Positions 9,055-19,653 of a DNA stretch of 33,796 bases are shown in pieces. Position 1 is the first letter of the stretch; each line of letters starts with the position of its first letter. The stretch is from sequence record SRR31156797_4962. One strand, written 5' to 3'. The notes beneath the pieces are model-generated. The model worked only from the letters and a program-made list of their open reading frames with translations. It made no database searches and was not told the origin of the DNA. The translations under genes and the position numbers were made by a program.

Positions 9055-9795
9055 TTACCTCAATACTTCTGATAATTGATGAACACGATTCGGTGACATT
9101 GGCAATTTGTAAATTTCATTGTCGCAGCACAACAAACACTGCTTCTCTTTACGATTTACCGATTTTAAATAATCCAGATTAATCGTTGCCGATCGACCAA
9201 CCCTAAAGAATAATTCCGTTGGCAATTGCTGAATCACACTGCTCAAAGTATTCGAAGTGGTTAAACAAGATCCACTCACCAATTTGATATCAGTATAATT
9301 TCGATCCGCCTTACAATATAAAATTTCTTCTGGCTTAATTACCTCAAATCCTACCCGGGTATTTATTCTTACCCTTTTGTTAATCCTCAACTTCAAAAAT
9401 AATTCCGACATTTTTTGCTTCTCCAACTCCTCATCTTCCAAACACTGAACTCTGTTCAAACAAAATTGCAGATCTTCCTTGTTTACAGGTTTCATTAAAT
9501 AATCTACAGCTGACGATCGGATGGCTTTAATCGTATAATCTTTATTCTTAGTTACAAAGGCAAACTTCGGATGTTCCCCTAATTCCATCAATTGATGTAT
9601 CAATTCAAAGCCATTATCATTCTTTAATTTCACCTCTAAAAAAATTACTTGAGGCTTGTGTAAGACATAAAGCAACAGTGCCTCCTCTATAGTATAAGCC
9701 TGATATATACCACACTTAGATTCCACCTCTCTTAATTTTAACTTAAGGTCATTACTGGCTTTTTTGTCGGTGTCGACGATTAAATAGTTTGACAT
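9055..9795 (-). CDS. LytTR-family response regulator with atypical receiver
   Basis: Receiver fold (LIVD...IFLEV...GFEL...FVT...DYLMKPV) plus LytTR domain (EILYCKADRNYT...FFRVGRSATINL). Confidence 0.9.
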   Translation of the reverse strand: MSNYLIVDTDKKASNDLKLKLREVESKCGIYQAYTIEEALLLYVLHKPQVIFLEVKLKNDNGFELIHQLMELGEHPKFAFVTKNKDYTIKAIRSSAVDYLMKPVNKEDLQFCLNRVQCLEDEELEKQKMSELFLKLRINKRVRINTRVGFEVIKPEEILYCKADRNYTDIKLVSGSCLTTSNTLSSVIQQLPTELFFRVGRSATINLDYLKSVNRKEKQCLLCCDNEIYKLPMSPNRVHQLSEVLR

Positions 9796-10043
9796 AGCAG
9801 ATAGTTTTAAAGGTTTATACCTGCGAAATTCACCATTCCTGATGATCTTTAAAATAACCCGAAGTAGTACAAATTATGGCTGACAAATTATCAAAAGCCA
9901 ATTTTGAGTTCTCCAAACAAGCAATTCATTGATTAAAACCCAGAATCATGCTATTCATAAAATAAATTAACTAGTGAATGAATATTCCACTATTAATTTC
10001 TATTTTAGATTACCCCACTAGCTTAATACCATTATTTTCTAAA

Positions 10044-10706
10044 ATGAATATATTAGTCGTAGAAGATCACACTTTATTGAGAACAGCCAGTGAGAAACTT
10101 TTAAAAGAAATGTTTCCCGAAGCTCGTGTGGAAGGATTCAGCTCTCCTTCGAAAGCAATGCCTTTTATTCAAAACCGAAATGTGGAATTTATGATTGTTG
10201 ATTTGGAATACAACAATCAGGAAGATGGGATCTCCTTTGTTAAAGAAGTGAAACAGAAAAAAAGCAATATTAAATGTATTGCCTACACCAGTCATAAAAT
10301 TAACCAGGTACTTAAAGACATTCGCGAAGCTGGTTTTAACTCCTACTTAAACAAGGATGCCAGCGAAAAGGAAATGATTGAGACTGTTGATGCGGTGCTA
10401 GATCAGCCTTCTGATGTTTTTTATGAATCCAGCTCTTACCTGAAGTTCAAAAAAGCAATTGAGGAACAGAAAAGCAAATACTACAGTACCGACTACGAGA
10501 AACTAAAATCGCTAACCAAAACCGAGAAAAAAGCCCTACAATTAATCTCTCAGGAAAATACGAGCAGCAACGATTTACTGGCAAACAAACTGGGCATTCA
10601 GCTCAACACCATGAAAAAGCACCTTAGTAATATTTACCGGAAATTGAACGTAAAAAGTAAGGATGGCTTAAAGCATTTCCATGAACGGATAAATGGGAAG
10701 AATTAA
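10044..10706 (+). CDS. NarL/LuxR-family response regulator
   Basis: Probable start ATG 10044 (MNILVVEDH); phospho-Asp in MIVDL; YTS; YLNK; HTH LTKTEKKAL...TMKKHLSNIYRKLNV. Confidence 0.9.
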   Translation: MNILVVEDHTLLRTASEKLLKEMFPEARVEGFSSPSKAMPFIQNRNVEFMIVDLEYNNQEDGISFVKEVKQKKSNIKCIAYTSHKINQVLKDIREAGFNSYLNKDASEKEMIETVDAVLDQPSDVFYESSSYLKFKKAIEEQKSKYYSTDYEKLKSLTKTEKKALQLISQENTSSNDLLANKLGIQLNTMKKHLSNIYRKLNVKSKDGLKHFHERINGKN

Positions 10707-10773
10707 CAAATAGAGAGCTGTCAGCTCACAGCAAAAATTTAAATTCCTCAATGTTGTTTGCTAAAAGTTAAAA

Positions 10774-12603
10774 TCAAACCACCAATTTCAAATAAAACCC
10801 ATTGCCTTCAGAGCTATCAATCTTTAGCTTGCCCGATAGAAATTCCGCTCGCTTGTGAATGTTGTGCCAGCCATTTCCTTTGCGGATTTTTTCCAAATCT
10901 ACACCAATTCCATCGTCGGCATATTCCAATTGCAATTTGCTGTTTTCCTTTTTAAACTTAATGATAATGGTAGATGCCTGAGCATGTTTTAAGCTATTGT
11001 TAATCAATTCCTGAACAATGCGAATGATATAAATTTTCTTCTTGTAATCGTCAATTTCAAAATCTTCCGACAAATGAATTTTTAAATCAATATCCTTAGG
11101 AAAATGATCCAATGGCAATGAATCGGACAAAGCCTCCCGAAACTTTTGATTACCAATAGCAGTCATATTTAACTGATGAGAAATTCCTCGCACCTCATCG
11201 CTAATTTTTCTTAGCTGAACTGCAAATTCTTGCTCTGTGTCTTCTTTTTCCATACTTCGGCACAAATGGCTCAAACTACTTGCTACTCCATCGTGTAAAT
11301 CGCGACTGATGCGATTGCACTCCCTATTTTCCCCAGCAATTCTTTCTTGCAACAACCTGGTTTTCTGGCGTTGATTTACATAAAAACCCAAAGGCAACAG
11401 GGAAAATAAAAACACGCCTAGCACAATCTTCATATACAAACTTTCCTTTTCTTTGGCTTCCTTTTCAATGTTTAACACCTCTATTTGCTGCTCCTTTTCA
11501 CGAGTTTGGTAACGGGTTTCCATCTCCTGCATGTGCTGCATGTTTTCGGTATTGAAAATGCTATCCTTTATGCTGATGTATTTGTCGTAATAAGCTAAGG
11601 CTTGTTTTCCTTGTTTTTGTGCTGCATAGAAATCCTTTAAACGTAGAAAAACTTCTTTTTGCAAATCTAATGCACCAATATGCTCTACCTGCTTTTTAGC
11701 TTTAAGCAGATAAATCTCCGCTTGCCAGAAATTATTTGTGTTAATGAATAACTCACCCAGTAAAAAACAACATGTAATTTCTAACTCTTTATCATTAGAA
11801 TCCTGACTATATTTTAGCGATTTCTTTAAACTACTTTCCGCATTTATAAAATCACCTAATTTCATTTGAACTTCACCTACATTTAGGTAAGCAGATGCCA
11901 AATATCTATTATCTCCTAACTCTAGTTTTAGCTGTAAAGCCTCATTAAAATTTGATAATGCCCGTTGATAATTCTCTTGTTCCTTATATACATTTCCAAT
12001 ATTATTTAATGCGATAACAATCCTTTTCTTAGAGTCTAATTCTCTAGCAACCTGCAATGATTTGTGATAATAAGAATGAGCTTCCTCATAATTCTTTTGT
12101 AGCTTTTTTATAATTCCAAACTCATTATAACACGAAGCAAGCTCTTTATTCCTTCGTAAGCTTTCCGCAATGTCTTTGGTTTTGTGTAAATAATTTAATG
12201 CTGATTCGTAATTACCCATTTTGCGATAAGCCTTACTTAGATTTAAAAACGTACTAAGCTTTGAGCTATCCTTATTCGAATTATATTTCAAAGATTTTTG
12301 GAAACATTCAATACCATTCTTATAATTCGCTCTTGAAATTTCAAGTCCTCCCAAATTATTCAAACTAACGACGATTAATTGAGTGTCTTTGGCTTGAACA
12401 GCTTTTCTTTCTGATTTTAATAGGTATACATATGCACTATCGTAAGAATTTTGTTTCCAGTGTTCAATCCCCAATGTAATTAGCTTGATTATTTCCTCTC
12501 GATCTGATTTCTTTTCAGCTACAAGTGTTTTAGTTGTAAACAGGATAAATACACAAAGAATCAACTTGCAGATTAAAAATTTAGGCAGTAAATATTTTTT
12601 CAT
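10774..12603 (-). CDS. TPR-repeat sensor histidine kinase (HisKA_3/NarX class)
   Basis: N-terminal signal/TM, multiple TPRs (LNNLG, YNEFG, LNNIGNVY, YLNVG), TM helix, H-box RISRDLHDG, N-box ELINNSLKHA, G-boxes DDGIG and GNG. Confidence 0.92.
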   Translation of the reverse strand: MKKYLLPKFLICKLILCVFILFTTKTLVAEKKSDREEIIKLITLGIEHWKQNSYDSAYVYLLKSERKAVQAKDTQLIVVSLNNLGGLEISRANYKNGIECFQKSLKYNSNKDSSKLSTFLNLSKAYRKMGNYESALNYLHKTKDIAESLRRNKELASCYNEFGIIKKLQKNYEEAHSYYHKSLQVARELDSKKRIVIALNNIGNVYKEQENYQRALSNFNEALQLKLELGDNRYLASAYLNVGEVQMKLGDFINAESSLKKSLKYSQDSNDKELEITCCFLLGELFINTNNFWQAEIYLLKAKKQVEHIGALDLQKEVFLRLKDFYAAQKQGKQALAYYDKYISIKDSIFNTENMQHMQEMETRYQTREKEQQIEVLNIEKEAKEKESLYMKIVLGVFLFSLLPLGFYVNQRQKTRLLQERIAGENRECNRISRDLHDGVASSLSHLCRSMEKEDTEQEFAVQLRKISDEVRGISHQLNMTAIGNQKFREALSDSLPLDHFPKDIDLKIHLSEDFEIDDYKKKIYIIRIVQELINNSLKHAQASTIIIKFKKENSKLQLEYADDGIGVDLEKIRKGNGWHNIHKRAEFLSGKLKIDSSEGNGFYLKLVV

Positions 12604-12623
12604 TAAGATTAGCTGAAGTTAAC

Positions 12624-12649
12624 AAAAGAGAGCCATAAATATGGCTCTC
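12624..12649 (-). terminator. Intrinsic terminator between the lipoprotein gene and the histidine kinase
   Basis: GAGAGCCAT/ATGGCTCTC stem (12628-12649) followed on the minus strand by TTTTGTT. Confidence 0.75.
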
Positions 12650-12680
12650 GTAATTTATTAAAATTAATTGAATATATCGT

Positions 12681-13055
12681 TTACTCCAAATTAATAGCTA
12701 ACTCTTCGCTTAAACCATCCTGATGATTTACGGTGATCAGATACTCCCCTGCTTTCTCCACCTCCAGGTAAAAAATACCATTCGTATTTGATGTGGTCTC
12801 ATCCATTGTTTCGAACTCTGGCATAGATTCCAATCTAATATTCGAACTGCTCTTTGTTTTTCCTTCAATGGTAATTGGCCAATCTGGATCTATAGCATCA
12901 TCATCACCATATTTTAAGCTTGTTTTTACAATCTTTATTGAAATGGAACTTTGAGCTTCTTCCTGTCCAAAATCCTTATCAGACTTATCACAGCCAATAA
13001 AAGTTAAAGAGAATAAAACGATTAATACGGTCGAAATAAATGTATATTTTTTCAT
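12681..13055 (-). CDS. Small lipoprotein, hypothetical
   Basis: Lipobox FIGC followed by acidic DKSDKD; C-terminal beta-rich TTSNTNGIFYLEVEKAGEYLITV (carboxypeptidase-regulatory/prealbumin-like). Confidence 0.75.
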   Translation of the reverse strand: MKKYTFISTVLIVLFSLTFIGCDKSDKDFGQEEAQSSISIKIVKTSLKYGDDDAIDPDWPITIEGKTKSSSNIRLESMPEFETMDETTSNTNGIFYLEVEKAGEYLITVNHQDGLSEELAINLE

Positions 13056-13194
13056 TTTGTTTGGATTTAAAAATTTGACATAGCTCGCCCCTTACGGTTT
13101 GGTGAGCGTTTAAATTGAAAACCAGAATTTGCTCTGGTAAAAAGTTTTTGAAAGGATGAATGAACAGTAAGCAAAACGACAAGTCGTCCTTTCA

Positions 13195-13214
13195 AAGCAA
13201 TTATCGAATTGCTT
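13195..13214. promoter_or_regulatory. Perfect 8-4-8 palindrome, candidate operator
   Basis: AAGCAATT-ATCG-AATTGCTT in the divergent intergenic region, just upstream of the -7 element at 13240. Confidence 0.5.
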
Positions 13215-13239
13215 ATGTTCACTCTTTGAGAATGTTTAT

Positions 13240-13247
13240 TATCTTTG
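13240..13247 (+). promoter_or_regulatory. Bacteroidota -7 promoter element for the STAND-GDPD operon
   Basis: TATCTTTG, exact TAnnTTTG consensus. Confidence 0.6.
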
Positions 13248-13460
13248 GTAGCTAACCAGGTTCGTACGGAACAAACATTCAGTTGAAATTTCTATGAACA
13301 AATCTATAGAGAAGCCAAATTTTAATTTTGGAAATGATTGGAAACCTCCATTTCCAAAAAATGACAATGGAAAAAATAAGATTAAAAGCTGGAGATATTC
13401 TCTGTAAATTCAGGCTTTTAATGAACAACAACTTTCGTCTGTCATTGTAAAAAAAAAGAT

Positions 13461-16400
13461 ATGCTGATAACAGAAATATCCCCAATCAGATACTTTGCCG
13501 AAGCGGAGGTGAAAGCCAATGGCTGCGAAATAAGAACGCTTATCCGTAAAGAATTTCAGCATCATGAAAACAAGGAGCTGTTAAGTACAGCCTCCAGAAT
13601 AAAAAATCATGTAAACAATGGGCTCCTAAAATACATACATGCCATCTGGAATAAATCTATGAAGGCTTGGCAAGAAAATATGGAAGAGCTTTTTGCCAAT
13701 GAAAAAACTCAAACCAATTTTTGTGCCAAGCGCTGTCTTGCCATAGTAAGCGACTACTCAAATCTGAATGATTACGTGCAAAACAATCAATTTTTGATCG
13801 CTCAAAGCAAGGAGCTACAATCAATAATTGAGGAAAATACAAGGGTTTGGAAAGAGAAGGGCAAGTATGAAGAACTACTGCGCCTGCAAGAAGAATTTAC
13901 CGATTTTGTAGAGCAAAAAATCCTGCTCGATGCCATAAATACTCTGAAGGGATGCAGAATGATCACCGATCCGTTTTTAGCTGAGATTAAAGATCTATCA
14001 GATAAGGAAATTCTAAAAAGTTTTGATTTGAATGCCGACGATTTTAAACAGTCTCAAAGCCTAATCACTGGAAATTGTACCACCGAATTCCGCGATTACA
14101 CCATCAATTTTGCAATTGGACTTTTAAGTCTGGATTTACAGGAAGAATATTCAGTTATCGAGGCACGTAAAAAGGAAGGCATTAGCCTTTTGCAAAGCAA
14201 GAAACAATGGGATGATTATCTGAAAGAAGCCAACAATCAAACCTATGGTTTCCTGGCTGAAATGTCGAAAGAAAAGTACGATGCCGAGGTATTCACCGAC
14301 CGAAATCAGATTAGCGATTCCTTTCATCAGTTTACAAAATCGACATCAACAGCCTTTATTCTTTTGGGAAGTGCTGGAAGCGGAAAAACCAATCAAATTT
14401 GCCATTGGGCATCCCAATTGTTAGAAAAGAACGAGTGTGTTATCTGTATCAACAGCAAAATTTTCTCGAACATTAGCCTTGAAGAGTATTTTCAGACTGC
14501 TTTCGGAGAACTCAAACTGGAAACGCTTTTGACCAATTTGCAGATTCTAGCCAATCAAAACAGAAAGAGAGTCTACCTTTTTTTCGATGCCATTAACGAA
14601 TGTGTAGACTATTTCGATAAATCTTCTCAGAAGAATCAGAAAGGTCCTATTGAGCTGTTAAAAATAATCGACAAGTATTTTATCAAACACAATTTGCCCA
14701 ATCTTAAAATTGTGATCAGTTGTCGTTCCTACACCTGGAAAGAGCTGATTGAACTGGAAGCATCGGCTATCAAACACGATTTGTACTATTCCAATCAAAG
14801 AAAAGAGGAGCACACCACCATTCAGCATTTGAGCGAATCGGAATTAAAGTGCACTTACAAAAAATATCAGAACAAATATCAGCTCAAAACCAGTAGCGAG
14901 GAGCTTTTTCATTCCGATTTTAATCTGATCAGGAATCGTTTAACCGATCCTTTAATTCTAAAAATGTCGTCCCTAGTATTTCAACATCAAGCTTTGCCAA
15001 ACGACATTCGCCTGTTCCATTCCAGCCAACTATTCGAGAATCTTTTAAAGGAAAAGGGAATTACTCAAACGGGTAAAAACAAACGGGAATATGTTCTGCT
15101 AAATAAAATAGCCAAATACCTTTGGAAATCGGGTCAGGATTCCATTTCGATGGAACAACTTATTCTGGCTTTCGACGATGATGATTACCCTTTACACAAG
15201 TTAAGCAAAAGCATTTTTGACAACGATGAATTTGAATTCAGTTTAGTATTCGATGCTTTGATTGAAAAGGGAATTTTAAAAATTGAGAAGAAGTATGGTC
15301 GCGATGAAATTCGATTTGTATACGAACGTTATCAGGAATATTTGTTCGCTCGTATTTTTAAGAATCAGGAAAATAGTAAGCTGGCTCATCGGGCACTTAC
15401 CATCCCGCCTGAAGCCTATAAAAGAGAACTGCTAACCGGCAAAAATTATGCTGTGGTGCGCAATGCCTTGCGTTCTGCCCTGCTTCAGGATTATCTGGAC
15501 AAGAACAACGATCCAAAAACCATTTTAAGCCTGGCTTGCGATAACAATTACGAAGTTCAGCAATTGGTAATAGATGCCCTTTCGGTGATATTGCAGGAAG
15601 ATTACAACCAGCTTTGGAGCTTGTTGGAACAAATGTTGTCTCATAACAGAGAGTCCTCAAGCGAAAAGGGGAAACAACTTGACAAATTGGAGAAGCTGTT
15701 GGAAGATTACAGCAAAAAAAAAACCAACAATCAGTCGGCAAGATATGAACAGCGCTTGCAGGAACGAAACCAGATTCTAAACGATTTATCGCCTGGCATA
15801 CAAGTTAAAAAGATTGCTATCTATGCCATCTACGAAATTTTTAAGTCGGATATCTATCAAAACCATTTATATCCTAAAGATAAAAACCCGGTTTCTTCTC
15901 TTTTGCATGCCATGGCTAACCCGATTTCAAGAGTTAGGGATATTGTTAGTTTGTATGTGTACTACATCACCAAATTGGATAAAAACCTGTGGTCCGAAAT
16001 TTTAGATCAGCTTGCAGGTAAAATGACCAAATCGAATGTAATTCTGAATTTTTGGAACGATTCATTAAAAAAGCATGTATTCGAGCCAGCTATTCGTATC
16101 AGTACGCTTTTGATTGTGGAAGATTTGTCGAGCAAAAAGAATGTAGATCTCAGCAAAGATTATGATTTTACCTTTTCCATTATCAATAGATGGATTAAGA
16201 TTTTAACCGAATTTAGCATTGTTTTTCCTGTTTTAAAGAAATTCACCCTGCGAAAGTTGGCTACCGTGCAGTCTGAGTATGTGAACAATGGAATCGAATA
16301 CCAACATTTCTGGGATAAAATTCCCATTCACAGCCAAAATGGAGAATGGTCTCACGAAGACTACAACCAAGTGCTGGATTATTTAACCAACGATAAGGAA

Positions 16401-17384
16401 GATTTTACAGATCTTCATCCTTTGGTAATGAAGGGCATGTATTCGGGCGACGCCTACAGCTTTTTAATGCTGGAAAGAGTATTAATTATGCAGGCGTTTC
16501 AAGACTGGAAACGCATAGAATTTGTTGTTCAGCAAATTAAAGCTGCAGATGTATCACATCCTTCTGTAAACTACATGCAGATGTCTGTTTTGTATGTGCT
16601 GTTCAGGTATATGATCAAAACTGAACATCCGGATCAGGAAGCCATGCGCTTGTTTTCTACTCTTATTTACAATTGGACTGCAAGATGCAAGGGTTCGTAT
16701 TATGCACACAACAATTACGAAGCCAATAACAACAAGCCATATAAGCAATACACCTTAAATTGGTATGGTGCTGCCTACTGTATGCATTATGGCGATGGAA
16801 ACAAGCGTGAAGGAGATCAGTATCCAATGCCAATTTTCTATCAGCTTATTGATGAAGCAATGCAGAAAATGGATAAGGATTTGTTGTACTGCTGCATAGA
16901 AAACATTGCTGTTTTGGTTACCGATTTTGGTTTCTACAAAAGTGCTTTGCAACTTTTCGAATATGTAGTAAATAAGATTCAGTACGAATCCACAATTATC
17001 GAATTGGATGCCATACAAGTGGAACGAGAAAATTACCAGGATGATCTTAGAACCTTCTTGTGTAAAACTCTGGGTACCATTAAAAGCTATCATCACAAGG
17101 AAGTCGATTTCTTTATCTACAACAACTTAAGAAATTCTACTTTTCCCGAAATCGACAAATTCCGAGAGGAATTGATCAAATACAATCAATCTTACGAAAA
17201 TATTGGAGACTTACTGACCCATAAATTTGGCAATTTTATAATTTGGTCTTTCCAAAACGACCCAAAAGTTAGTGCATCTTTAAAACAAATTATGCAATAC
17301 GGAACCGAAGCGAACAATTACAAAGGATGGTTTAAAAAACTATCTACTCATGTATTTGATCAACTTTTTGGTATCGAATTTTAA
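13461..17384 (+). CDS. Large STAND-class (NACHT/Avs-like) P-loop NTPase
   Basis: Walker A GSAGSGKT (14367-14390), Walker B YLFFDAINE (D at 14586), sensor-1 IVISCR, DPL motif, winged-helix FVYERYQEYL, long helical C-terminal region. Confidence 0.85.
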   Translation: MLITEISPIRYFAEAEVKANGCEIRTLIRKEFQHHENKELLSTASRIKNHVNNGLLKYIHAIWNKSMKAWQENMEELFANEKTQTNFCAKRCLAIVSDYSNLNDYVQNNQFLIAQSKELQSIIEENTRVWKEKGKYEELLRLQEEFTDFVEQKILLDAINTLKGCRMITDPFLAEIKDLSDKEILKSFDLNADDFKQSQSLITGNCTTEFRDYTINFAIGLLSLDLQEEYSVIEARKKEGISLLQSKKQWDDYLKEANNQTYGFLAEMSKEKYDAEVFTDRNQISDSFHQFTKSTSTAFILLGSAGSGKTNQICHWASQLLEKNECVICINSKIFSNISLEEYFQTAFGELKLETLLTNLQILANQNRKRVYLFFDAINECVDYFDKSSQKNQKGPIELLKIIDKYFIKHNLPNLKIVISCRSYTWKELIELEASAIKHDLYYSNQRKEEHTTIQHLSESELKCTYKKYQNKYQLKTSSEELFHSDFNLIRNRLTDPLILKMSSLVFQHQALPNDIRLFHSSQLFENLLKEKGITQTGKNKREYVLLNKIAKYLWKSGQDSISMEQLILAFDDDDYPLHKLSKSIFDNDEFEFSLVFDALIEKGILKIEKKYGRDEIRFVYERYQEYLFARIFKNQENSKLAHRALTIPPEAYKRELLTGKNYAVVRNALRSALLQDYLDKNNDPKTILSLACDNNYEVQQLVIDALSVILQEDYNQLWSLLEQMLSHNRESSSEKGKQLDKLEKLLEDYSKKKTNNQSARYEQRLQERNQILNDLSPGIQVKKIAIYAIYEIFKSDIYQNHLYPKDKNPVSSLLHAMANPISRVRDIVSLYVYYITKLDKNLWSEILDQLAGKMTKSNVILNFWNDSLKKHVFEPAIRISTLLIVEDLSSKKNVDLSKDYDFTFSIINRWIKILTEFSIVFPVLKKFTLRKLATVQSEYVNNGIEYQHFWDKIPIHSQNGEWSHEDYNQVLDYLTNDKEDFTDLHPLVMKGMYSGDAYSFLMLERVLIMQAFQDWKRIEFVVQQIKAADVSHPSVNYMQMSVLYVLFRYMIKTEHPDQEAMRLFSTLIYNWTARCKGSYYAHNNYEANNNKPYKQYTLNWYGAAYCMHYGDGNKREGDQYPMPIFYQLIDEAMQKMDKDLLYCCIENIAVLVTDFGFYKSALQLFEYVVNKIQYESTIIELDAIQVERENYQDDLRTFLCKTLGTIKSYHHKEVDFFIYNNLRNSTFPEIDKFREELIKYNQSYENIGDLLTHKFGNFIIWSFQNDPKVSASLKQIMQYGTEANNYKGWFKKLSTHVFDQLFGIEF

Positions 17385-17395
17385 AAAAGAATAAA

Positions 17396-18265
17396 ATGAG
17401 TAATAAAAGGAAGTTTACAATCAAAAAATTCATTCTAATCCTAATCTGTATCCCTTTACTTTACAGCGGATTTCATTACATCAAACTAATAACTTTTTCG
17501 GGTACAGATAATCATCCAGAACGAACTGTTATAGCGCACAGAGGTGCTGGTGGCGAAATGCCTGAGAATACGCTTGCAGCCGTAAAACAAGCAATAGAAG
17601 ATAAATCGGATTACATTGAAATAGACGTGCACGAAAGCAAGGATGGAGAAATATGTGTGATGCACGACAGAACCGTAAACAGAACCACTAATGGGAAAGG
17701 AAAAATAAAGAATTTAAGCTGGAAAGAGATTCAAAAGTTAGATGCTGGATCGTGGTTTTCACCAGAGTTTAAAAACGAAAGAGTTCCTTCCTTAGAGCAG
17801 GTTATACGTGCTATAAATGGCAAATGTAAACTACTAATAGAAATCAAAAAAGGAGATCCCTATTATCCTGATATCGAAGAAAAAGTAGTCAGAATCATTC
17901 AAAAAAATGATGCTCAAAATTGGTGTGCCGTACAAAGTTTTAATATGGATGTGATTGAGAAAATTCACAAGCTGGACTCTTCATTGGAATTGCATAAGCT
18001 GGAGATATTTGTACTGCCTTCTTTAAACTTTGCCTTTGATGGCTTGCCACATGCTTTTCGACCTAATGAGAATCCTTATATTAAAGCCTACAATGTGAAT
18101 TGTTTCTTCCTTTCTTCAAGCATTATTGAATCAATTCATTCGTACGATAAAAAAGTAAATGCCTGGACATGCGATTCTCCTTCTATTGTAAACCGAATGC
18201 TCTCGATTGGTGCCGATGGAATTATTACGAACGAACCCAGAAATACAAACAGTCTCATTAAATAA
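17396..18265 (+). CDS. Glycerophosphodiester phosphodiesterase (GDPD) with N-terminal membrane anchor
   Basis: IAHRG, PENTL, IEIDV, VMHDRTVNRTT, IEIK, QSF, WT, GADGIITN; N-terminal KKFILILICIPLLY TM helix. Confidence 0.93.
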   Translation: MSNKRKFTIKKFILILICIPLLYSGFHYIKLITFSGTDNHPERTVIAHRGAGGEMPENTLAAVKQAIEDKSDYIEIDVHESKDGEICVMHDRTVNRTTNGKGKIKNLSWKEIQKLDAGSWFSPEFKNERVPSLEQVIRAINGKCKLLIEIKKGDPYYPDIEEKVVRIIQKNDAQNWCAVQSFNMDVIEKIHKLDSSLELHKLEIFVLPSLNFAFDGLPHAFRPNENPYIKAYNVNCFFLSSSIIESIHSYDKKVNAWTCDSPSIVNRMLSIGADGIITNEPRNTNSLIK

Positions 18266-18290
18266 AAAACACATAAAGATATCTACAATA

Positions 18291-18327
18291 AAGCGCCACT
18301 CTCATTACGAAAGTGGCGCTTGGTTTT
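18291..18327. terminator. Intrinsic terminator after GDPD
   Basis: AAGCGCCACT (18291-18300) / AGTGGCGCTT (18312-18321) stem with a T-rich tail. Confidence 0.8.
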
Positions 18328-18642
18328 GGTACATCAATTATTTTATTTATGAATAGATAATCCTATCCCAAAACCATAATGAAGAATGTAGTAGTAGTAG
18401 TGAAAATTCACCTTCTTCTTCCATTAATACTGCAATTTAGTTGGTAAGAATCAACCAAAATGGCAATAACCAAATCTCTATCTACTAAATCAAATCACCA
18501 AATTGGTCGATTCCTTTCCATGTTAAGTATTAAAGTTGCAAGTAATATTCCTATTCTAATAGAGCTAATCAAAGTGACGACAGCCAATTACTATCAACCA
18601 ATCAATAGTTCCAAATGTATTGTTTCTTCAATTCTATTAATT

Positions 18643-19653
18643 TTAAGAAACAACAAGCTCAGTCTGTTTTTCAAATTTTGTCGCATACCATTTTTCCGGT
18701 GTATTTAATGGACTGATAAACGATACTGAATAATTAATTACGAAGTTGATAATTCCAAAGAATGCCACCAGGAATCCAACAAAAAAGGCAACCATTACAA
18801 TCACTACAATGAGTATCAAAGCTGATGTTCCTTCCGATTCGTGATCTCTTTTCCAAGGACCTCCGTTTACACTTACGTACTCTTTAATTGAGAATCCTGC
18901 AAAGAGGGCTGCCATTACTCCTCCAATAAATCCAAGCTTTTTCGTTTTAAAAGTCTCCAATCTCTTTTCCAAAGCATATTTCGCTGTTCTGCTCGACAGG
19001 TAATAAAATGTAATGCCAATAATATGGATTAAGGTGAAGCTTGATAGCAACATACCAATATCCATAAAACCCATAAACACTAATATTCCTATGGCACAAC
19101 CCAATATCCAGTTCGAGCCGGTGTATTGTCGTTTTGTTCTGTCGAAATAAACATTCGTGAATTCTTCAACTCGCTCTTGTATCGCAGAATCGGTAGGACA
19201 TAATCTTGTATTTATATAATTCAATCCATGTCTCATGAATCTTGCCTGCGATCCTTTAGTTATGGTTACCATTTCGTAACCATCCTCATCAGTAAATGGG
19301 GTTAGTTTTTCTTCAATTGTAACCAGAATATGTTCGGCTCTGTTGTTTCTTTCTTCATCGGTTAAACTCTCCAAAATTTTTACCTTATCCGGATTTACAT
19401 CACCCAGCATTTTTTCCTGGAAATTGGTATAAACCACCAAAGGGAACAATACAAATACGCCTAACAAATAACTACCTGCAAAAATTATTTGCATCCAATC
19501 AATTCCTTTTTCAGGAACAGCTTTATCAATTGGTTGTGCCTGTTCAACATTTGCAATTTCGGTTTGTTCTTCTGTTTGAATGAAAGTATTTGCCTGAACT
19601 GAATAAGTCCCGCAAAGAACTGCAAACAGGGCAAATAGAATTAATTTTTTCAT
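18643..19653 (-). CDS. Hypothetical multi-pass membrane protein with cleavable signal peptide
   Basis: MKKLILF...VQA signal peptide; about 5 hydrophobic segments; 336-aa ORF; family not recognised. Confidence 0.8.
   Translation of the reverse strand: MKKLILFALFAVLCGTYSVQANTFIQTEEQTEIANVEQAQPIDKAVPEKGIDWMQIIFAGSYLLGVFVLFPLVVYTNFQEKMLGDVNPDKVKILESLTDEERNNRAEHILVTIEEKLTPFTDEDGYEMVTITKGSQARFMRHGLNYINTRLCPTDSAIQERVEEFTNVYFDRTKRQYTGSNWILGCAIGILVFMGFMDIGMLLSSFTLIHIIGITFYYLSSRTAKYALEKRLETFKTKKLGFIGGVMAALFAGFSIKEYVSVNGGPWKRDHESEGTSALILIVVIVMVAFFVGFLVAFFGIINFVINYSVSFISPLNTPEKWYATKFEKQTELVVS

What the first reader, a model, noticed from the sequence alone, without database searches (positions are those of the whole stretch)
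13461..18265. Avs/NLR-like STAND ATPase lacking a recognisable effector, in an operon with a membrane-anchored GDPD: candidate new defence or signalling system
Seen: a 1307-aa STAND NTPase (GSAGSGKT, FFDAINE, ISCR, DPL, YERYQEY) with an approximately 300-aa N-terminal region that looks helical and shows no nuclease, SIR2, TIR or protease motif I can recognise, plus a long helical C-terminal region. GDPD starts 11 nt after its stop. The pair has a TAnnTTTG promoter upstream and one terminator downstream. Established: Avs and bacterial NACHT proteins with this architecture sense phage proteins and activate fused or adjacent effectors. I know of no described STAND system with a GDPD partner. Inference: the effector is either a novel helical N-terminal domain or the GDPD, acting on glycerophosphodiesters or lipid headgroups. 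Caveat: the positive-inside rule suggests the GDPD domain is periplasmic.
Basis: partly seen in the sequence, partly recalled or inferred. Interest (0 to 1): 0.75.

Follow-up and report, generated by a model that had tools for sequence, protein, structure and literature searches.

The report
Conserved NLR-like ATPase plus exported phosphodiesterase cassette
A large NLR-like switch protein and a secreted glycerophosphodiester phosphodiesterase form a gene pair that travels together through many Bacteroidales genomes, usually with a third membrane protein that this genome has lost; no described defence system matches it and its function is unknown.

Summary
In detail: a 1307-aa NACHT-type STAND ATPase (13461-17384) is followed 11 nt later by a 289-aa signal-anchored GDPD (17396-18265).

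The pairing is not local chance. In 64 of 67 metagenome loci with room, carrying relatives down to 26% identity, a GDPD lies directly downstream, often with overlapping stop and start codons. STAND and GDPD divergences correlate (r 0.91).

- Most relatives carry a third gene, a ~420-500-aa CorA-like membrane protein. It is absent from the window and from Marinifilum genomes.
- The window's N-terminal ~245 aa is a lineage-specific replacement of the family's usual N-domain. It is shared only with one unrelated NACHT protein.
- The C-terminal half is an ARM/HEAT-like solenoid under strong purifying selection, not a fast-evolving sensor.

The partner GDPDs are mostly exported and belong to an ordinary Bacteroidota GDPD type that also occurs without the STAND. 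The cassette is accessory (4 of 8 genomes in the genus, 3 of 301 in the order) but shows no clear defence-island context. No PADLOC model matches the window's proteins.

My best reading is a derived two-gene form of an undescribed NLR-like, envelope-directed conflict system (about 0.45). The main rival is a STAND-type regulator or signalling partner of an exported GDPD.

The parts
13144..13370 (.). Conserved non-coding block upstream of the STAND gene (promoter/operator and the first part of a long leader)
   Evidence: 67-93% of columns are invariant per 30-nt block across window, L001, L002, L003 and L006. The last ~90 nt before the ATG are 0-17% invariant. The putative leader 13254-13470 folds at -45.2 kcal/mol, z -3.18, with 0 of 200 shuffles as stable. 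No Rfam match at E <= 1.
13240..13247 (+). TATCTTTG, a match to the Bacteroidota TAnnTTTG promoter motif. That this motif is a promoter element is recalled knowledge.
   Evidence: It lies in the most conserved 30-nt blocks (90-93% invariant). The motif is not enriched in the window (34 found, 47 expected).
13461..17384 (+). STAND/NACHT ATPase gene, 1307 aa (P0001)
   Evidence: dN/dS is 0.06-0.11 against five orthologues.
13461..14195 (+). N-terminal module, aa 1-245: lineage-specific, no known family
   Evidence: No hhalign match to the family's usual N-domain or to the CorA-like family. Among 1.84 billion representatives there are only three hits: its own cluster, one other NACHT protein (P0057, E 1e-6) and one weak hit. 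ESM Atlas scores were at most 0.81, so leads only.
14196..15392 (+). Pre-NACHT linker plus NACHT nucleotide-binding module and helical/winged-helix region, aa 246-644
   Evidence: Pfam NACHT aa 300-469. All relatives align from about aa 250 onward.
14367..14390 (+). Walker A GSAGSGKT (aa 303-310)
   Evidence: G303, G306, G308 and K309 are invariant, T310 at least 90%.
14580..14600 (+). Walker B region FFDAINE (aa 374-380)
   Evidence: F375, D376, A377, N379 and E380 are invariant.
15393..17381 (+). C-terminal ARM/HEAT-like alpha-solenoid, aa 645-1307
   Evidence: AF2 with a 50-sequence alignment: pLDDT 87.8, pTM 0.87, 35 helices. Foldseek against the PDB gives only generic solenoids (CAND1, transportin, beta-catenin), with no match at E <= 0.001. 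Conservation equals that of the NTPase core. dN/dS is 0.04-0.10.
17396..18265 (+). GDPD gene, 289 aa (P0002)
   Evidence: PF03009 E 4.5e-45. Catalytic H48, R49, E75, D77, H90, E149 and K151 equivalents are invariant in 37 STAND-linked GDPDs.
17432..17482 (+). N-terminal hydrophobic core (aa 13-29) preceded by five K/R: signal anchor or signal peptide
17537..18238 (+). GDPD catalytic TIM-barrel domain (aa 48-281)
   Evidence: Pfam stretch 48-281.
18291..18321 (+). Terminator-like hairpin (13-nt arms, 5-nt loop) followed by GGTTTTGG
   Evidence: Not called by the simple scan.

Best explanation
The window holds a derived two-gene form of a conserved, horizontally mobile accessory cassette of Bacteroidales. 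The ancestral form has three genes: (i) a cytosolic NACHT-type STAND ATPase made of an N-terminal adaptor/effector domain, the NTPase switch and a conserved ARM/HEAT-like solenoid; (ii) a CorA-like membrane protein with two C-terminal transmembrane helices; and (iii) a mostly exported, catalytically intact GDPD.

I read it as an NLR-like conflict system, probably anti-phage and abortive-infection-like, that acts on the cell envelope. The inferred steps are these. The solenoid binds a conserved trigger. Nucleotide exchange and oligomerisation of the STAND follow. Its N-terminal domain then acts on the membrane partner (the CorA-like protein in the ancestral form), and the GDPD works on glycerophosphodiester or lipid head groups on the outer side of the inner membrane.

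In the Marinifilum lineage the CorA-like gene was lost and the N-terminal domain was replaced by a rare module also found on another NACHT protein. Here the output is either that new module or the GDPD.

What is shown: the anatomy, the conserved linkage, co-inheritance, the domain swap, purifying selection and the export signals. What is inferred: the trigger, any oligomerisation, any contact between the proteins, and a defence role.
For: Linkage:
- A GDPD lies directly downstream in 64 of 67 metagenome loci with room, and in 37 of 38 non-redundant ones.
- Many stop/start overlaps of -4 or -1 nt.
- The same arrangement is seen in G097 and G351.

Co-inheritance:
- STAND C-terminal and GDPD identity matrices correlate, r 0.91, Mantel p 0.001 over 37 pairs.
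- In the genus, 4 of 8 genomes have the STAND. The 4 without it have only partial or other GDPD hits.

Third gene:
- A CorA-like gene is present in 33 of 36 loci with adequate flanks, 23 of 25 non-redundant, in four different arrangements.
- It gives weak PADLOC CorA-like hits: E 1.2e-6 for one copy, best 3.3e-10 among neighbours.
- G351, the nearest canonical relative, has the operon CorA-like / STAND / GDPD.

Accessory and mobile:
- Found in 3 of 301 genomes of the order, 7 of 96 of the family and 4 of 8 of the genus.
- Flanking genes differ from locus to locus.

NLR-like traits:
- Invariant Walker A and B.
- N-terminal domain swapping, with the window's module shared with another NACHT protein.
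- Weak Avs2 similarity of relatives' NTPase cores.

Functional maintenance: dN/dS 0.06-0.11 for the STAND and 0.16-0.17 for the GDPD. GDPD catalytic residues are invariant.

Derived state of the window's form: the Marinifilum clade is sister to G351 (SH-like support 100) inside canonical clades.
Against: - No defence-island signal. Of 124 nearest non-module neighbours from 47 loci, Pfam shows mostly housekeeping or transport families, with 2 integrases and 1 transposase. PADLOC shows only single AbiEi/AbiEii, PDC-M04A/B, mad and IetA hits.
- No PADLOC hit for the window's own proteins.
- The solenoid is as conserved as the NTPase core and has the lowest dN/dS. This is not what an arms-race sensor would show.
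- 34 of 41 partner GDPDs look exported, which separates them from a cytosolic STAND. The other 7 lack a clear signal, so localisation is not uniform.
- GDPDs of the same type occur without the STAND in 17 of 19 GDPD-bearing genomes of the order sample and are mixed with linked ones in the tree. In G003 and G097 the linked GDPD is the only PF03009 hit in the genome. It may therefore also be the cell's ordinary GDPD.
- Not found on viral contigs or plasmids.
- In Marinifilum the locus is syntenic wherever it is present.
Confidence: 0.45

Rival explanations
1. Physiological regulator or signalling pair. The STAND is a MalT/AfsR/GutR-like switch. Its conserved solenoid binds an endogenous small molecule or protein, for example a glycerophosphodiester, a lipid intermediate or an envelope-stress signal. 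It then controls expression or activity of the adjacent exported GDPD and, in the ancestral form, of a CorA-like cation channel. The cassette would serve phospholipid or glycerophosphodiester turnover, or phosphate and cation homeostasis, not immunity.
For: - The linkage is asymmetric. The STAND almost always has the GDPD (64 of 67), but similar GDPDs mostly lack the STAND (17 of 19 genomes). That is the pattern of a dedicated regulator and its target.
- The solenoid is strongly conserved, with dN/dS 0.04-0.10.
- Neighbourhoods are housekeeping-type.
- The linked GDPD is the only full-length GDPD in G003 and G097.
- A highly conserved upstream non-coding block suggests tight regulation.
- MalT's use of a helical repeat sensor is recalled knowledge, not tested here.
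Against: - No DNA-binding domain was found. No HTH family appears for P0001 at E <= 1 or consistently among 44 N-domains at E <= 10.
- Stop/start overlap between a 1300-aa regulator and its target enzyme is unusual.
- The third gene resembles CRISPR-associated CorA-like models, and Pfam found no family for it at E <= 1 in five copies.
- The N-terminal module is shuffled between unrelated NACHT proteins, as NLR effector or adaptor domains are.
- Distribution is very patchy, 3 of 301 genomes.
Confidence: 0.3
2. A variant of the defence reading. The N-terminal module itself is the effector, an RNase of HEPN type, activated when the STAND oligomerises. The GDPD and CorA-like genes are accessories. 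The lead is an R-x5-H motif. In the family N-domain it reads IRNEY.GH, with R, N and H invariant in 44 sequences. The window has LIRKEFQHH at aa 27-35, invariant at R29 and H35 in 7 Marinifilaceae. P0057 has LIRSKIENH.
For: - Invariant R159, N160 and H165 in A2.
- R29 and H35 invariant in A3.
- The same spacing occurs in P0057.
- MAFFT aligned R29 and H35 with the family motif in A1.
- That Rx4-6H is the HEPN signature is recalled knowledge.
Against: - No HEPN Pfam family hit in 44 N-domains at E <= 10.
- Foldseek of the confident model (pLDDT 91.8) found no HEPN structure and no match at E <= 0.001. The whole two-domain model was searched, however, which may hide a 130-aa domain.
- hhalign finds no homology between the window's aa 1-245 and the family N-domain.
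- In the window the motif sits 28 residues from the N-terminus, too early for the last helix of a four-helix HEPN bundle.
Confidence: 0.12
3. Guard of an exported enzyme. The conserved solenoid binds the GDPD precursor, or the state of its export, and fires when export or envelope integrity is disturbed, for example by phage.
For: - The GDPD is the one universal partner.
- The solenoid is conserved like a domain that binds a conserved self protein.
- Most GDPDs carry export signals.
- STAND and GDPD co-diverge, r 0.91.
Against: There is no direct evidence of contact. The correlation can come from co-inheritance alone. Seven of 41 GDPDs lack a clear export signal.
Confidence: 0.08

Closest known systems
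Avs / AVAST antiviral STAND ATPases (closest profile: Avs2)
   Same: Tripartite plan of N-terminal variable module, STAND NTPase and C-terminal helical repeat region. N-terminal modules are swapped between lineages. Relatives' NTPase cores hit Avs2 models weakly, best E 1.5e-9.
   Different: The window's protein hits no Avs or PADLOC model. A relative scores 27.5 bits against NCBIfam Avs2's cut-off of 1000. There is no known effector domain. The family is tightly linked to a GDPD and usually a CorA-like gene. The C-terminal region is highly conserved. No defence-island context was seen.
Bacterial NACHT (bNACHT) NLR-related anti-phage proteins (Kibby et al.; bioRxiv 10.1101/2022.07.19.500537, passages read)
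   Same: The Pfam NACHT module is at or above threshold. The proteins are large and single-chain with helical C-terminal regions.
   Different: [quoted passage not shown] Here the operon partner is conserved in 64 of 67 loci. The paper's main text does not contain 'GDPD', 'glycerophospho', 'CorA' or 'phosphodiesterase'. Its supplements were not seen.
Type III CRISPR-associated CorA-like membrane effector with a phosphodiesterase (NrN) that degrades the signal (recalled from memory; not read here)
   Same: A CorA-like membrane protein, matching PADLOC 'CorA-like' models weakly, sits with a phosphodiesterase and a cytosolic sensor in a Bacteroidota conflict-type cassette.
   Different: The sensor here is a STAND, not Cas10. 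The phosphodiesterase is a mostly exported GDPD TIM barrel, not a cytosolic DHH enzyme. The window itself lacks the CorA-like gene. No signalling nucleotide is implied.
STAND transcription regulators MalT / AfsR (SARP) / GutR (recalled)
   Same: A STAND switch with a helical-repeat sensor next to the genes it could control, with a conserved sensor.
   Different: No DNA-binding domain was detected. The gene is translationally coupled to its neighbour.
GlpQ/UgpQ-type glycerophosphodiester phosphodiesterases
   Same: PF03009 at E 4.5e-45. The catalytic His/Arg/Glu/Asp/His/Glu/Lys set is invariant. There is an N-terminal export signal, as in periplasmic GlpQ (this comparison is recalled). Close relatives stand alone in many Bacteroidota.
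   Different: It scores below the NCBIfam equivalog cut-offs: 131.8 against 264 for PRK09454, and 50 against 254 for PRK11143. It is translationally coupled to a STAND ATPase.

Membership tests
STAND NTPase, NACHT clade | P-loop NTPase with Walker A GxxxxGK[ST], Walker B hhhhD followed by acidic residues, and a match to the NACHT profile | tested here: met
   Pfam NACHT 26.9 bits against a cut-off of 26.7 for the window. Relatives score about 35 bits, and one passes nSTAND3 at 36.5 against 27.2. Walker A and B residues are invariant. The window's own score is marginal.
Avs (antiviral STAND) families as modelled in PADLOC and NCBIfam | Match to a family profile at family level | tested here: not met
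   0 PADLOC hits for P0001. Relatives hit Avs2 models over the NTPase core only. NCBIfam Avs2 gives 27.5 bits against a cut-off of 1000. PADLOC-DB here is v2.0.0 of 2023, so Avs7-24 of the 2026 preprint are not covered.
Avs (antiviral STAND) families | Recognised N-terminal effector domain (nuclease, SIR2, TIR, protease, Cap4, TM and the like) | tested here: not met
   No family on aa 1-290. ESM Atlas gives only leads at scores of 0.81 or less. The family N-domain has no Pfam or PDB match.
Anti-phage defence system (general) | Enrichment next to known defence genes or on mobile elements | tested here: inconclusive
   124 neighbours from 47 loci show a few single defence hits, 2 integrases and 1 transposase. 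No background rate was computed. None on viral contigs or plasmids.
Anti-phage defence system (general) | Protection against phage when expressed | not testable with these tools
   Needs a bench experiment.
MalT/AfsR/GutR-type STAND transcription factors | DNA-binding domain (LuxR-type HTH, SARP/OmpR wHTH or similar) fused to the STAND | tested here: not met
   No HTH family for P0001 at E <= 1. None is recurrent in 44 N-domains at E <= 10. The C-terminal model is a continuous solenoid.
GDPD (PF03009) superfamily | Profile match and the catalytic His-Arg, Glu/Asp metal ligands and second His | tested here: met
   E 4.5e-45. Equivalents of H48, R49, E75, D77, H90, E149 and K151 are invariant in 37 sequences. 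The roles of these residues are recalled.
UgpQ/GlpQ equivalogs (NCBIfam) | Score above the equivalog cut-off | tested here: not met
   131.8 against 264, and 50 against 254.
HEPN RNases | Four-helix bundle with Rx4-6H at the start of the last helix | tested here: inconclusive
   R-x5-H motifs are present and conserved. There is no HEPN profile or fold match. The window's own module was not modelled.
CorA-like membrane effectors (for the third gene of relatives) | Profile match, a large cytosolic N-domain and two C-terminal TM helices | tested here: inconclusive
   PADLOC CorA-like at E 1.2e-6 and 3.3e-10. No Pfam family at E <= 1 in five copies. No PDB relative by sequence. C-terminal hydrophobic helices were seen by eye in the printed sequences. 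The gene is absent from the window.

The most novel reading that the evidence does not exclude
This is a previously undescribed class of NLR-like immune system whose output lies outside the cytoplasm. A cytosolic STAND switch would be coupled to a CorA-like inner-membrane protein and to an exported phosphodiesterase that attacks glycerophosphodiester or lipid head groups of the envelope. Alternatively the STAND 'guards' the export of that enzyme. The Marinifilum form would be a natural minimal two-gene version with a new N-terminal output module.
Probability: 0.25. Interest if true: 0.85.

Novelty: new variant of a known kind. Interest (0 to 1): 0.64.

Why it matters
Bacterial NLR-like STAND proteins are mostly described as single-gene systems that carry their own effector domain. 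One paper notes that the bNACHT genes it tested were only rarely in poorly conserved operons (passage).

This cassette is different. The effector-less STAND is locked to an exported phosphodiesterase across relatives down to 26% identity, and usually to a CorA-like membrane protein as well.

If it is a defence system, it adds an envelope-directed output to the NLR repertoire and gives a function to a GDPD outside nutrient scavenging. If it is a regulator, it is a new kind of STAND-controlled envelope or phospholipid pathway in Bacteroidales, including gut and rumen lineages.

The natural experiment in Marinifilum makes the roles of the parts testable, because there the N-domain was swapped and the CorA-like gene lost.

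Tried and rejected
- Complex prediction of the solenoid (aa 645-1307) with the GDPD catalytic domain gave no verdict. It counts neither for nor against binding.
- Fusion hypothesis: that the window's N-terminal module is a remnant of the CorA-like gene fused by deletion. Rejected. hhalign A3 against A5 gives probability 0.3%, and BLASTP against the G351 CorA-like protein gives E 3.6.
- Homotypic adaptor hypothesis: that the family N-domain is shared with the CorA-like protein. hhalign gives probability 0.1%.
- The membrane protein downstream of the GDPD (18643-19653, minus strand) as a stand-in for the CorA-like gene: no homology, hhalign probability 0.9%.
- Sequence searches of the PDB with the solenoid, N-domain and CorA-like profiles found nothing meaningful.
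- Rfam on 12600-18800 gave no match at E <= 1.
- No tRNA gene in the window.
- Viral contigs and plasmids: no relative.
- RNA evidence: one marine-sediment RNA library, held as contigs, has short pieces on the STAND ORF only. The lack of cover on the GDPD and on the junction says nothing.
- The maximum-likelihood mixture tree did not finish in time. FastTree was used instead.
- No whole genome is held for the window.
- Supplementary tables of the STAND surveys, which may list this clade, could not be seen.
- A 37-codon upstream ORF at 13294-13407 is broken in L003 and differs at its end in L006 by my reading of the alignment. I do not count it as a gene.


Full report
**1. What is in the window**

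ORF 13461-17384 (+) encodes 1307 aa and ORF 17396-18265 (+) encodes 289 aa. Eleven nt separate the TAA from the ATG.

It passes Pfam NACHT marginally: aa 300-469, 26.9 bits against a cut-off of 26.7. No Pfam, NCBIfam or PADLOC family falls on aa 1-290.

The small protein is a GDPD (PF03009, E 4.5e-45). It scores below the NCBIfam UgpQ/GlpQ equivalog cut-offs. Its N-terminus has five K/R followed by a hydrophobic core at aa 13-29.

A TAnnTTTG match at 13240-13247 lies in a very conserved upstream block. A 13-nt-arm hairpin followed by TTTT lies 26 nt after the GDPD stop. The simple terminator scan did not call it.

Nearby genes are a TPR histidine kinase, LuxR- and LytTR-type response regulators, YccF, an M23 peptidase and unannotated proteins. 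No defence gene turned up among the ten neighbours scanned against Pfam. The window has no tRNA gene. GC content at the locus is 0.35-0.39, close to the rest of the window.

**2. Relatives and the GDPD link**

A word-indexed search of 5.8 billion proteins found 53 relatives.
- Five full-length proteins are 78-94% identical, two of them named Marinifilum. A sixth is a 763-aa fragment at 84%.
- The others are 27-49% identical, 1246-1444 aa long (one 753-aa fragment), and cover 79-87% of the query. Locus alignments show the shared part begins at about aa 250.
- None has the length expected of a STAND-GDPD fusion.

Seven Marinifilaceae genomes keep the same locus and neighbours. A metagenome scan returned 80 loci at 26-93% identity. 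Among them:
- 67 have at least 900 nt after the STAND stop, and 64 of these have a GDPD directly downstream. After collapsing at 85% identity the figure is 37 of 38.
- The three exceptions carry a TraG-like, a VanY and an MscS gene instead.
- Stop and start often overlap by 4 or 1 nt.

Pairwise identities of the STAND C-terminal region and the GDPD correlate over 37 pairs, r 0.91, Mantel p 0.001.

Within the genus, 4 of 8 species genomes have the STAND. The other four have only partial or different GDPD hits. In one of them the conserved neighbours on one side are present, but the STAND, the GDPD and the genes on the other side are not.

**3. A third gene the window lacks**

Clustering the neighbours showed a ~420-aa protein next to the pair in most distant loci. 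By eye it has two hydrophobic C-terminal helices. A ~500-aa variant occurs in a few others.

With profile searches, 33 of 36 loci with adequate flanks carry one, or 23 of 25 non-redundant. The arrangements vary: divergent upstream, same strand upstream, same strand after the GDPD, or convergent.

Pfam finds no family for it. PADLOC 'CorA-like' models hit weakly, at E 1.2e-6 and a best of 3.3e-10 among neighbours.

The gene is absent from the window, from all Marinifilum-type loci and from two whole Marinifilum genomes. It is present in G097.

G351, a Marinifilaceae genome whose STAND is 50% identical, has the operon CorA-like / STAND (1409 aa) / GDPD. In a FastTree of the shared region (50 representatives plus G351; midpoint root, for drawing only) the Marinifilum-type clade is sister to G351 with SH-like support 100, inside clades of the canonical type. 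The two-gene form is therefore most simply read as derived.

**4. The N-terminal region**

In 44 canonical relatives the N-domain is conserved. I dropped three representatives, L031, L060 and L067, because their called N-termini were over-long. Invariant residues are D58, E61, G107, R159, N160 and H165 in L025 numbering.

AF2 folds it confidently (pLDDT 91.8) as a helical domain plus a beta-sandwich. It has no Pfam, PDB-sequence or Foldseek match. ESM Atlas points to unnamed Bacteroidota clusters at a score of 0.95.

The window's aa 1-245 shows no profile similarity to that domain. Only aa 246-301 align.

Against 1.84 billion representatives, aa 1-250 finds three proteins. These are its own cluster, one weak hit, and P0057 at E 1e-6. 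P0057 is 1316 aa long. It shares only this module (26% identity over 231 aa) and continues into a different, canonical NACHT with the motifs GNPGCGKST and LILDGLDE.

Shuffling of an N-terminal module between unrelated NACHT proteins is what NLR effector or adaptor domains do. An R-x5-H motif recurs in all three contexts. That is only a lead towards HEPN.

**5. The C-terminal region**

With a 50-sequence alignment, AF2 gives an all-alpha solenoid of 35 helices (pLDDT 87.8, pTM 0.87). Foldseek finds only generic ARM/HEAT proteins and nothing at E <= 0.001.

Column conservation is as high as in the NTPase core. Against five orthologues, dN/dS is 0.04-0.10 for this region, 0.08-0.24 for the N-module where dS could be estimated, 0.06-0.11 for the whole protein, and 0.16-0.17 for the GDPD. 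The gene is clearly maintained, and its 'sensor' is not diversifying.

**6. The GDPD partners**

Catalytic residues are invariant in 37 linked GDPDs.

Of 41 partner ORFs:
- 25 have an N-terminal hydrophobic anchor or signal preceded by basic residues.
- 9 more have a lipobox-like cysteine.
- 4 have only a short hydrophobic end abutting the HRG motif.
- 3 have no such N-terminal feature.

These are heuristic calls, not SignalP.

The GDPD is not a special type.
- 5200 proteins match at E <= 1e-20, including named stand-alone genes of Prolixibacter, Rufibacter, Adhaeribacter and others at 40-58% identity.
- In the 301-genome sample of the order, 19 genomes have such a GDPD and 3 have a STAND match, one of them weak. 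Only 2 genomes have both.
- In a tree, linked GDPDs cluster (2 label changes; 0 of 500 shuffles as low), but ten stand-alone ones fall inside the 19-row clade that holds the window's GDPD.
- In G003 and G097 the linked GDPD is the only PF03009 hit in the genome.

**7. Context and distribution**

The cassette is rare and patchy: 3 of 301 genomes in the order, 7 of 96 in the family and 4 of 8 in the genus, with a single copy in the two genomes checked. It was not found on viral contigs or plasmids.

I scanned the 124 nearest non-module neighbours from 47 loci.
- Pfam families are mostly transport, metabolism and housekeeping, with 2 integrases and 1 transposase.
- PADLOC gives single AbiEi/AbiEii, PDC-M04A/B, mad and IetA hits, plus the extra CorA-like genes.

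I computed no background rate, so this is 'no clear defence island', not a measured absence.

DNA about 95% identical to the locus lies on an oyster-metagenome contig, and related pieces on microbial-mat contigs. Eight listed short pieces from one RNA library lie on the STAND ORF, but the tool warns that DNA may be present in such libraries.

**8. Literature**

No paper held all of STAND, 'glycerophosphodiester phosphodiesterase' and anti-phage. NACHT + GDPD + defense returned three irrelevant papers. Among the 12 papers listed for a two-of-four search with 'glycerophosphodiester phosphodiesterase', 'defense island', 'phage defense' and 'NLR', none held the GDPD phrase.

By term search, the main texts of four papers contain neither 'GDPD' nor 'glycerophospho':
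- the bNACHT paper;
- the 2026 STAND survey (589 clades, at least 90 defence-associated families; abstract and passages read);
- two Aravind-lab surveys (PMC7159879 and PMC8195603).

**9. Reading**

These points are shown:
- a functional, accessory, co-inherited cassette;
- an ancestral three-gene form;
- an N-domain swap and loss of the CorA-like gene in the window's lineage;
- a conserved solenoid;
- mostly exported, catalytically intact GDPDs.

These points are inferred: what triggers the STAND, whether it oligomerises, what it touches, and whether the outcome is immunity.

I favour an NLR-like, envelope-directed conflict system, at about 0.45. The reasons are the NLR-style modular N-terminus, the CorA-like partner that resembles CRISPR-associated effectors rather than ordinary CorA, the translational coupling, and the patchy cassette-like spread.

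The strongest rival, at about 0.3, is a dedicated STAND regulator or signalling partner of an ordinary exported GDPD. It is supported by the asymmetric linkage, the strongly constrained solenoid and the housekeeping surroundings. It is weakened by the absence of any DNA-binding domain.

Either way the module matches no described system that I could find.

Noticed in passing
window 13056-13460: The 405-nt spacer upstream of the STAND gene is more conserved than the coding sequence across five species-level genomes: up to 93% of columns invariant at 13203-13253, but 0-17% in the last ~90 nt. It contains several hairpins, including an 11-bp stem at about 13326-13359. The putative leader folds with z -3.18. 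There is no Rfam match. It could be an operator array, a leader RNA or a small RNA.
   Followed up: partly
L007 8001-11920 (Marinifilum fragile JCM 15579) and G365:C4:40841-44760: The STAND orthologue is split by a frameshift near aa 258-269: 3920 nt instead of 3921, giving two ORFs. This is either a draft-assembly error or a pseudogene in that strain.
   Followed up: no
P0057 (1316 aa, one Logan contig of 6757 nt): A different, canonical NACHT protein carries the only detectable homologue of the window's N-terminal module. It is a rare shuffled N-terminal domain with a conserved LIR....H motif.
   Followed up: partly
L098 12240-13793 (-), and most of L023-L092: This is the CorA-like third gene of the cassette: two flavours of ~420 and ~500 aa, two hydrophobic C-terminal helices, a conserved SYNFLP motif and no Pfam family. 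Its end abuts the STAND start in G351.
   Followed up: yes
L046 7001-8452: The GDPD ORF runs on for at least 484 aa to the contig end, against 292 aa in its closest relatives. This is either a C-terminal fusion or a lost stop codon.
   Followed up: no
L060 3677-9115: An 1812-aa family member has a ~600-aa N-terminal region. Its neighbour (262 aa) belongs to a small cluster shared with L020 and L038, the loci where no GDPD or CorA-like gene was seen.
   Followed up: no
L010, L015, L024, L027, L082, L087 (next to the cassette): A further small protein of 124-202 aa recurs beside the cassette in 6 of 47 loci. It was not characterised.
   Followed up: no
window 9055-12603: A TPR-containing histidine kinase (10774-12603, minus strand), a LuxR-type response regulator (9978-10706, plus strand) and a LytTR-type response regulator (9055-9795, minus strand) lie just upstream. 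They are syntenic with the cassette in Marinifilum, but much less conserved (kinase 48-80% identity) than the STAND.
   Followed up: partly
window 18643-19653 (-), and L099 9360-11428: A 336-aa multi-pass membrane protein with a signal peptide lies convergent to the GDPD. It has a 25%-identical tandem paralogue in a congeneric genome that lacks the cassette. It shows no homology to the CorA-like family.
   Followed up: partly
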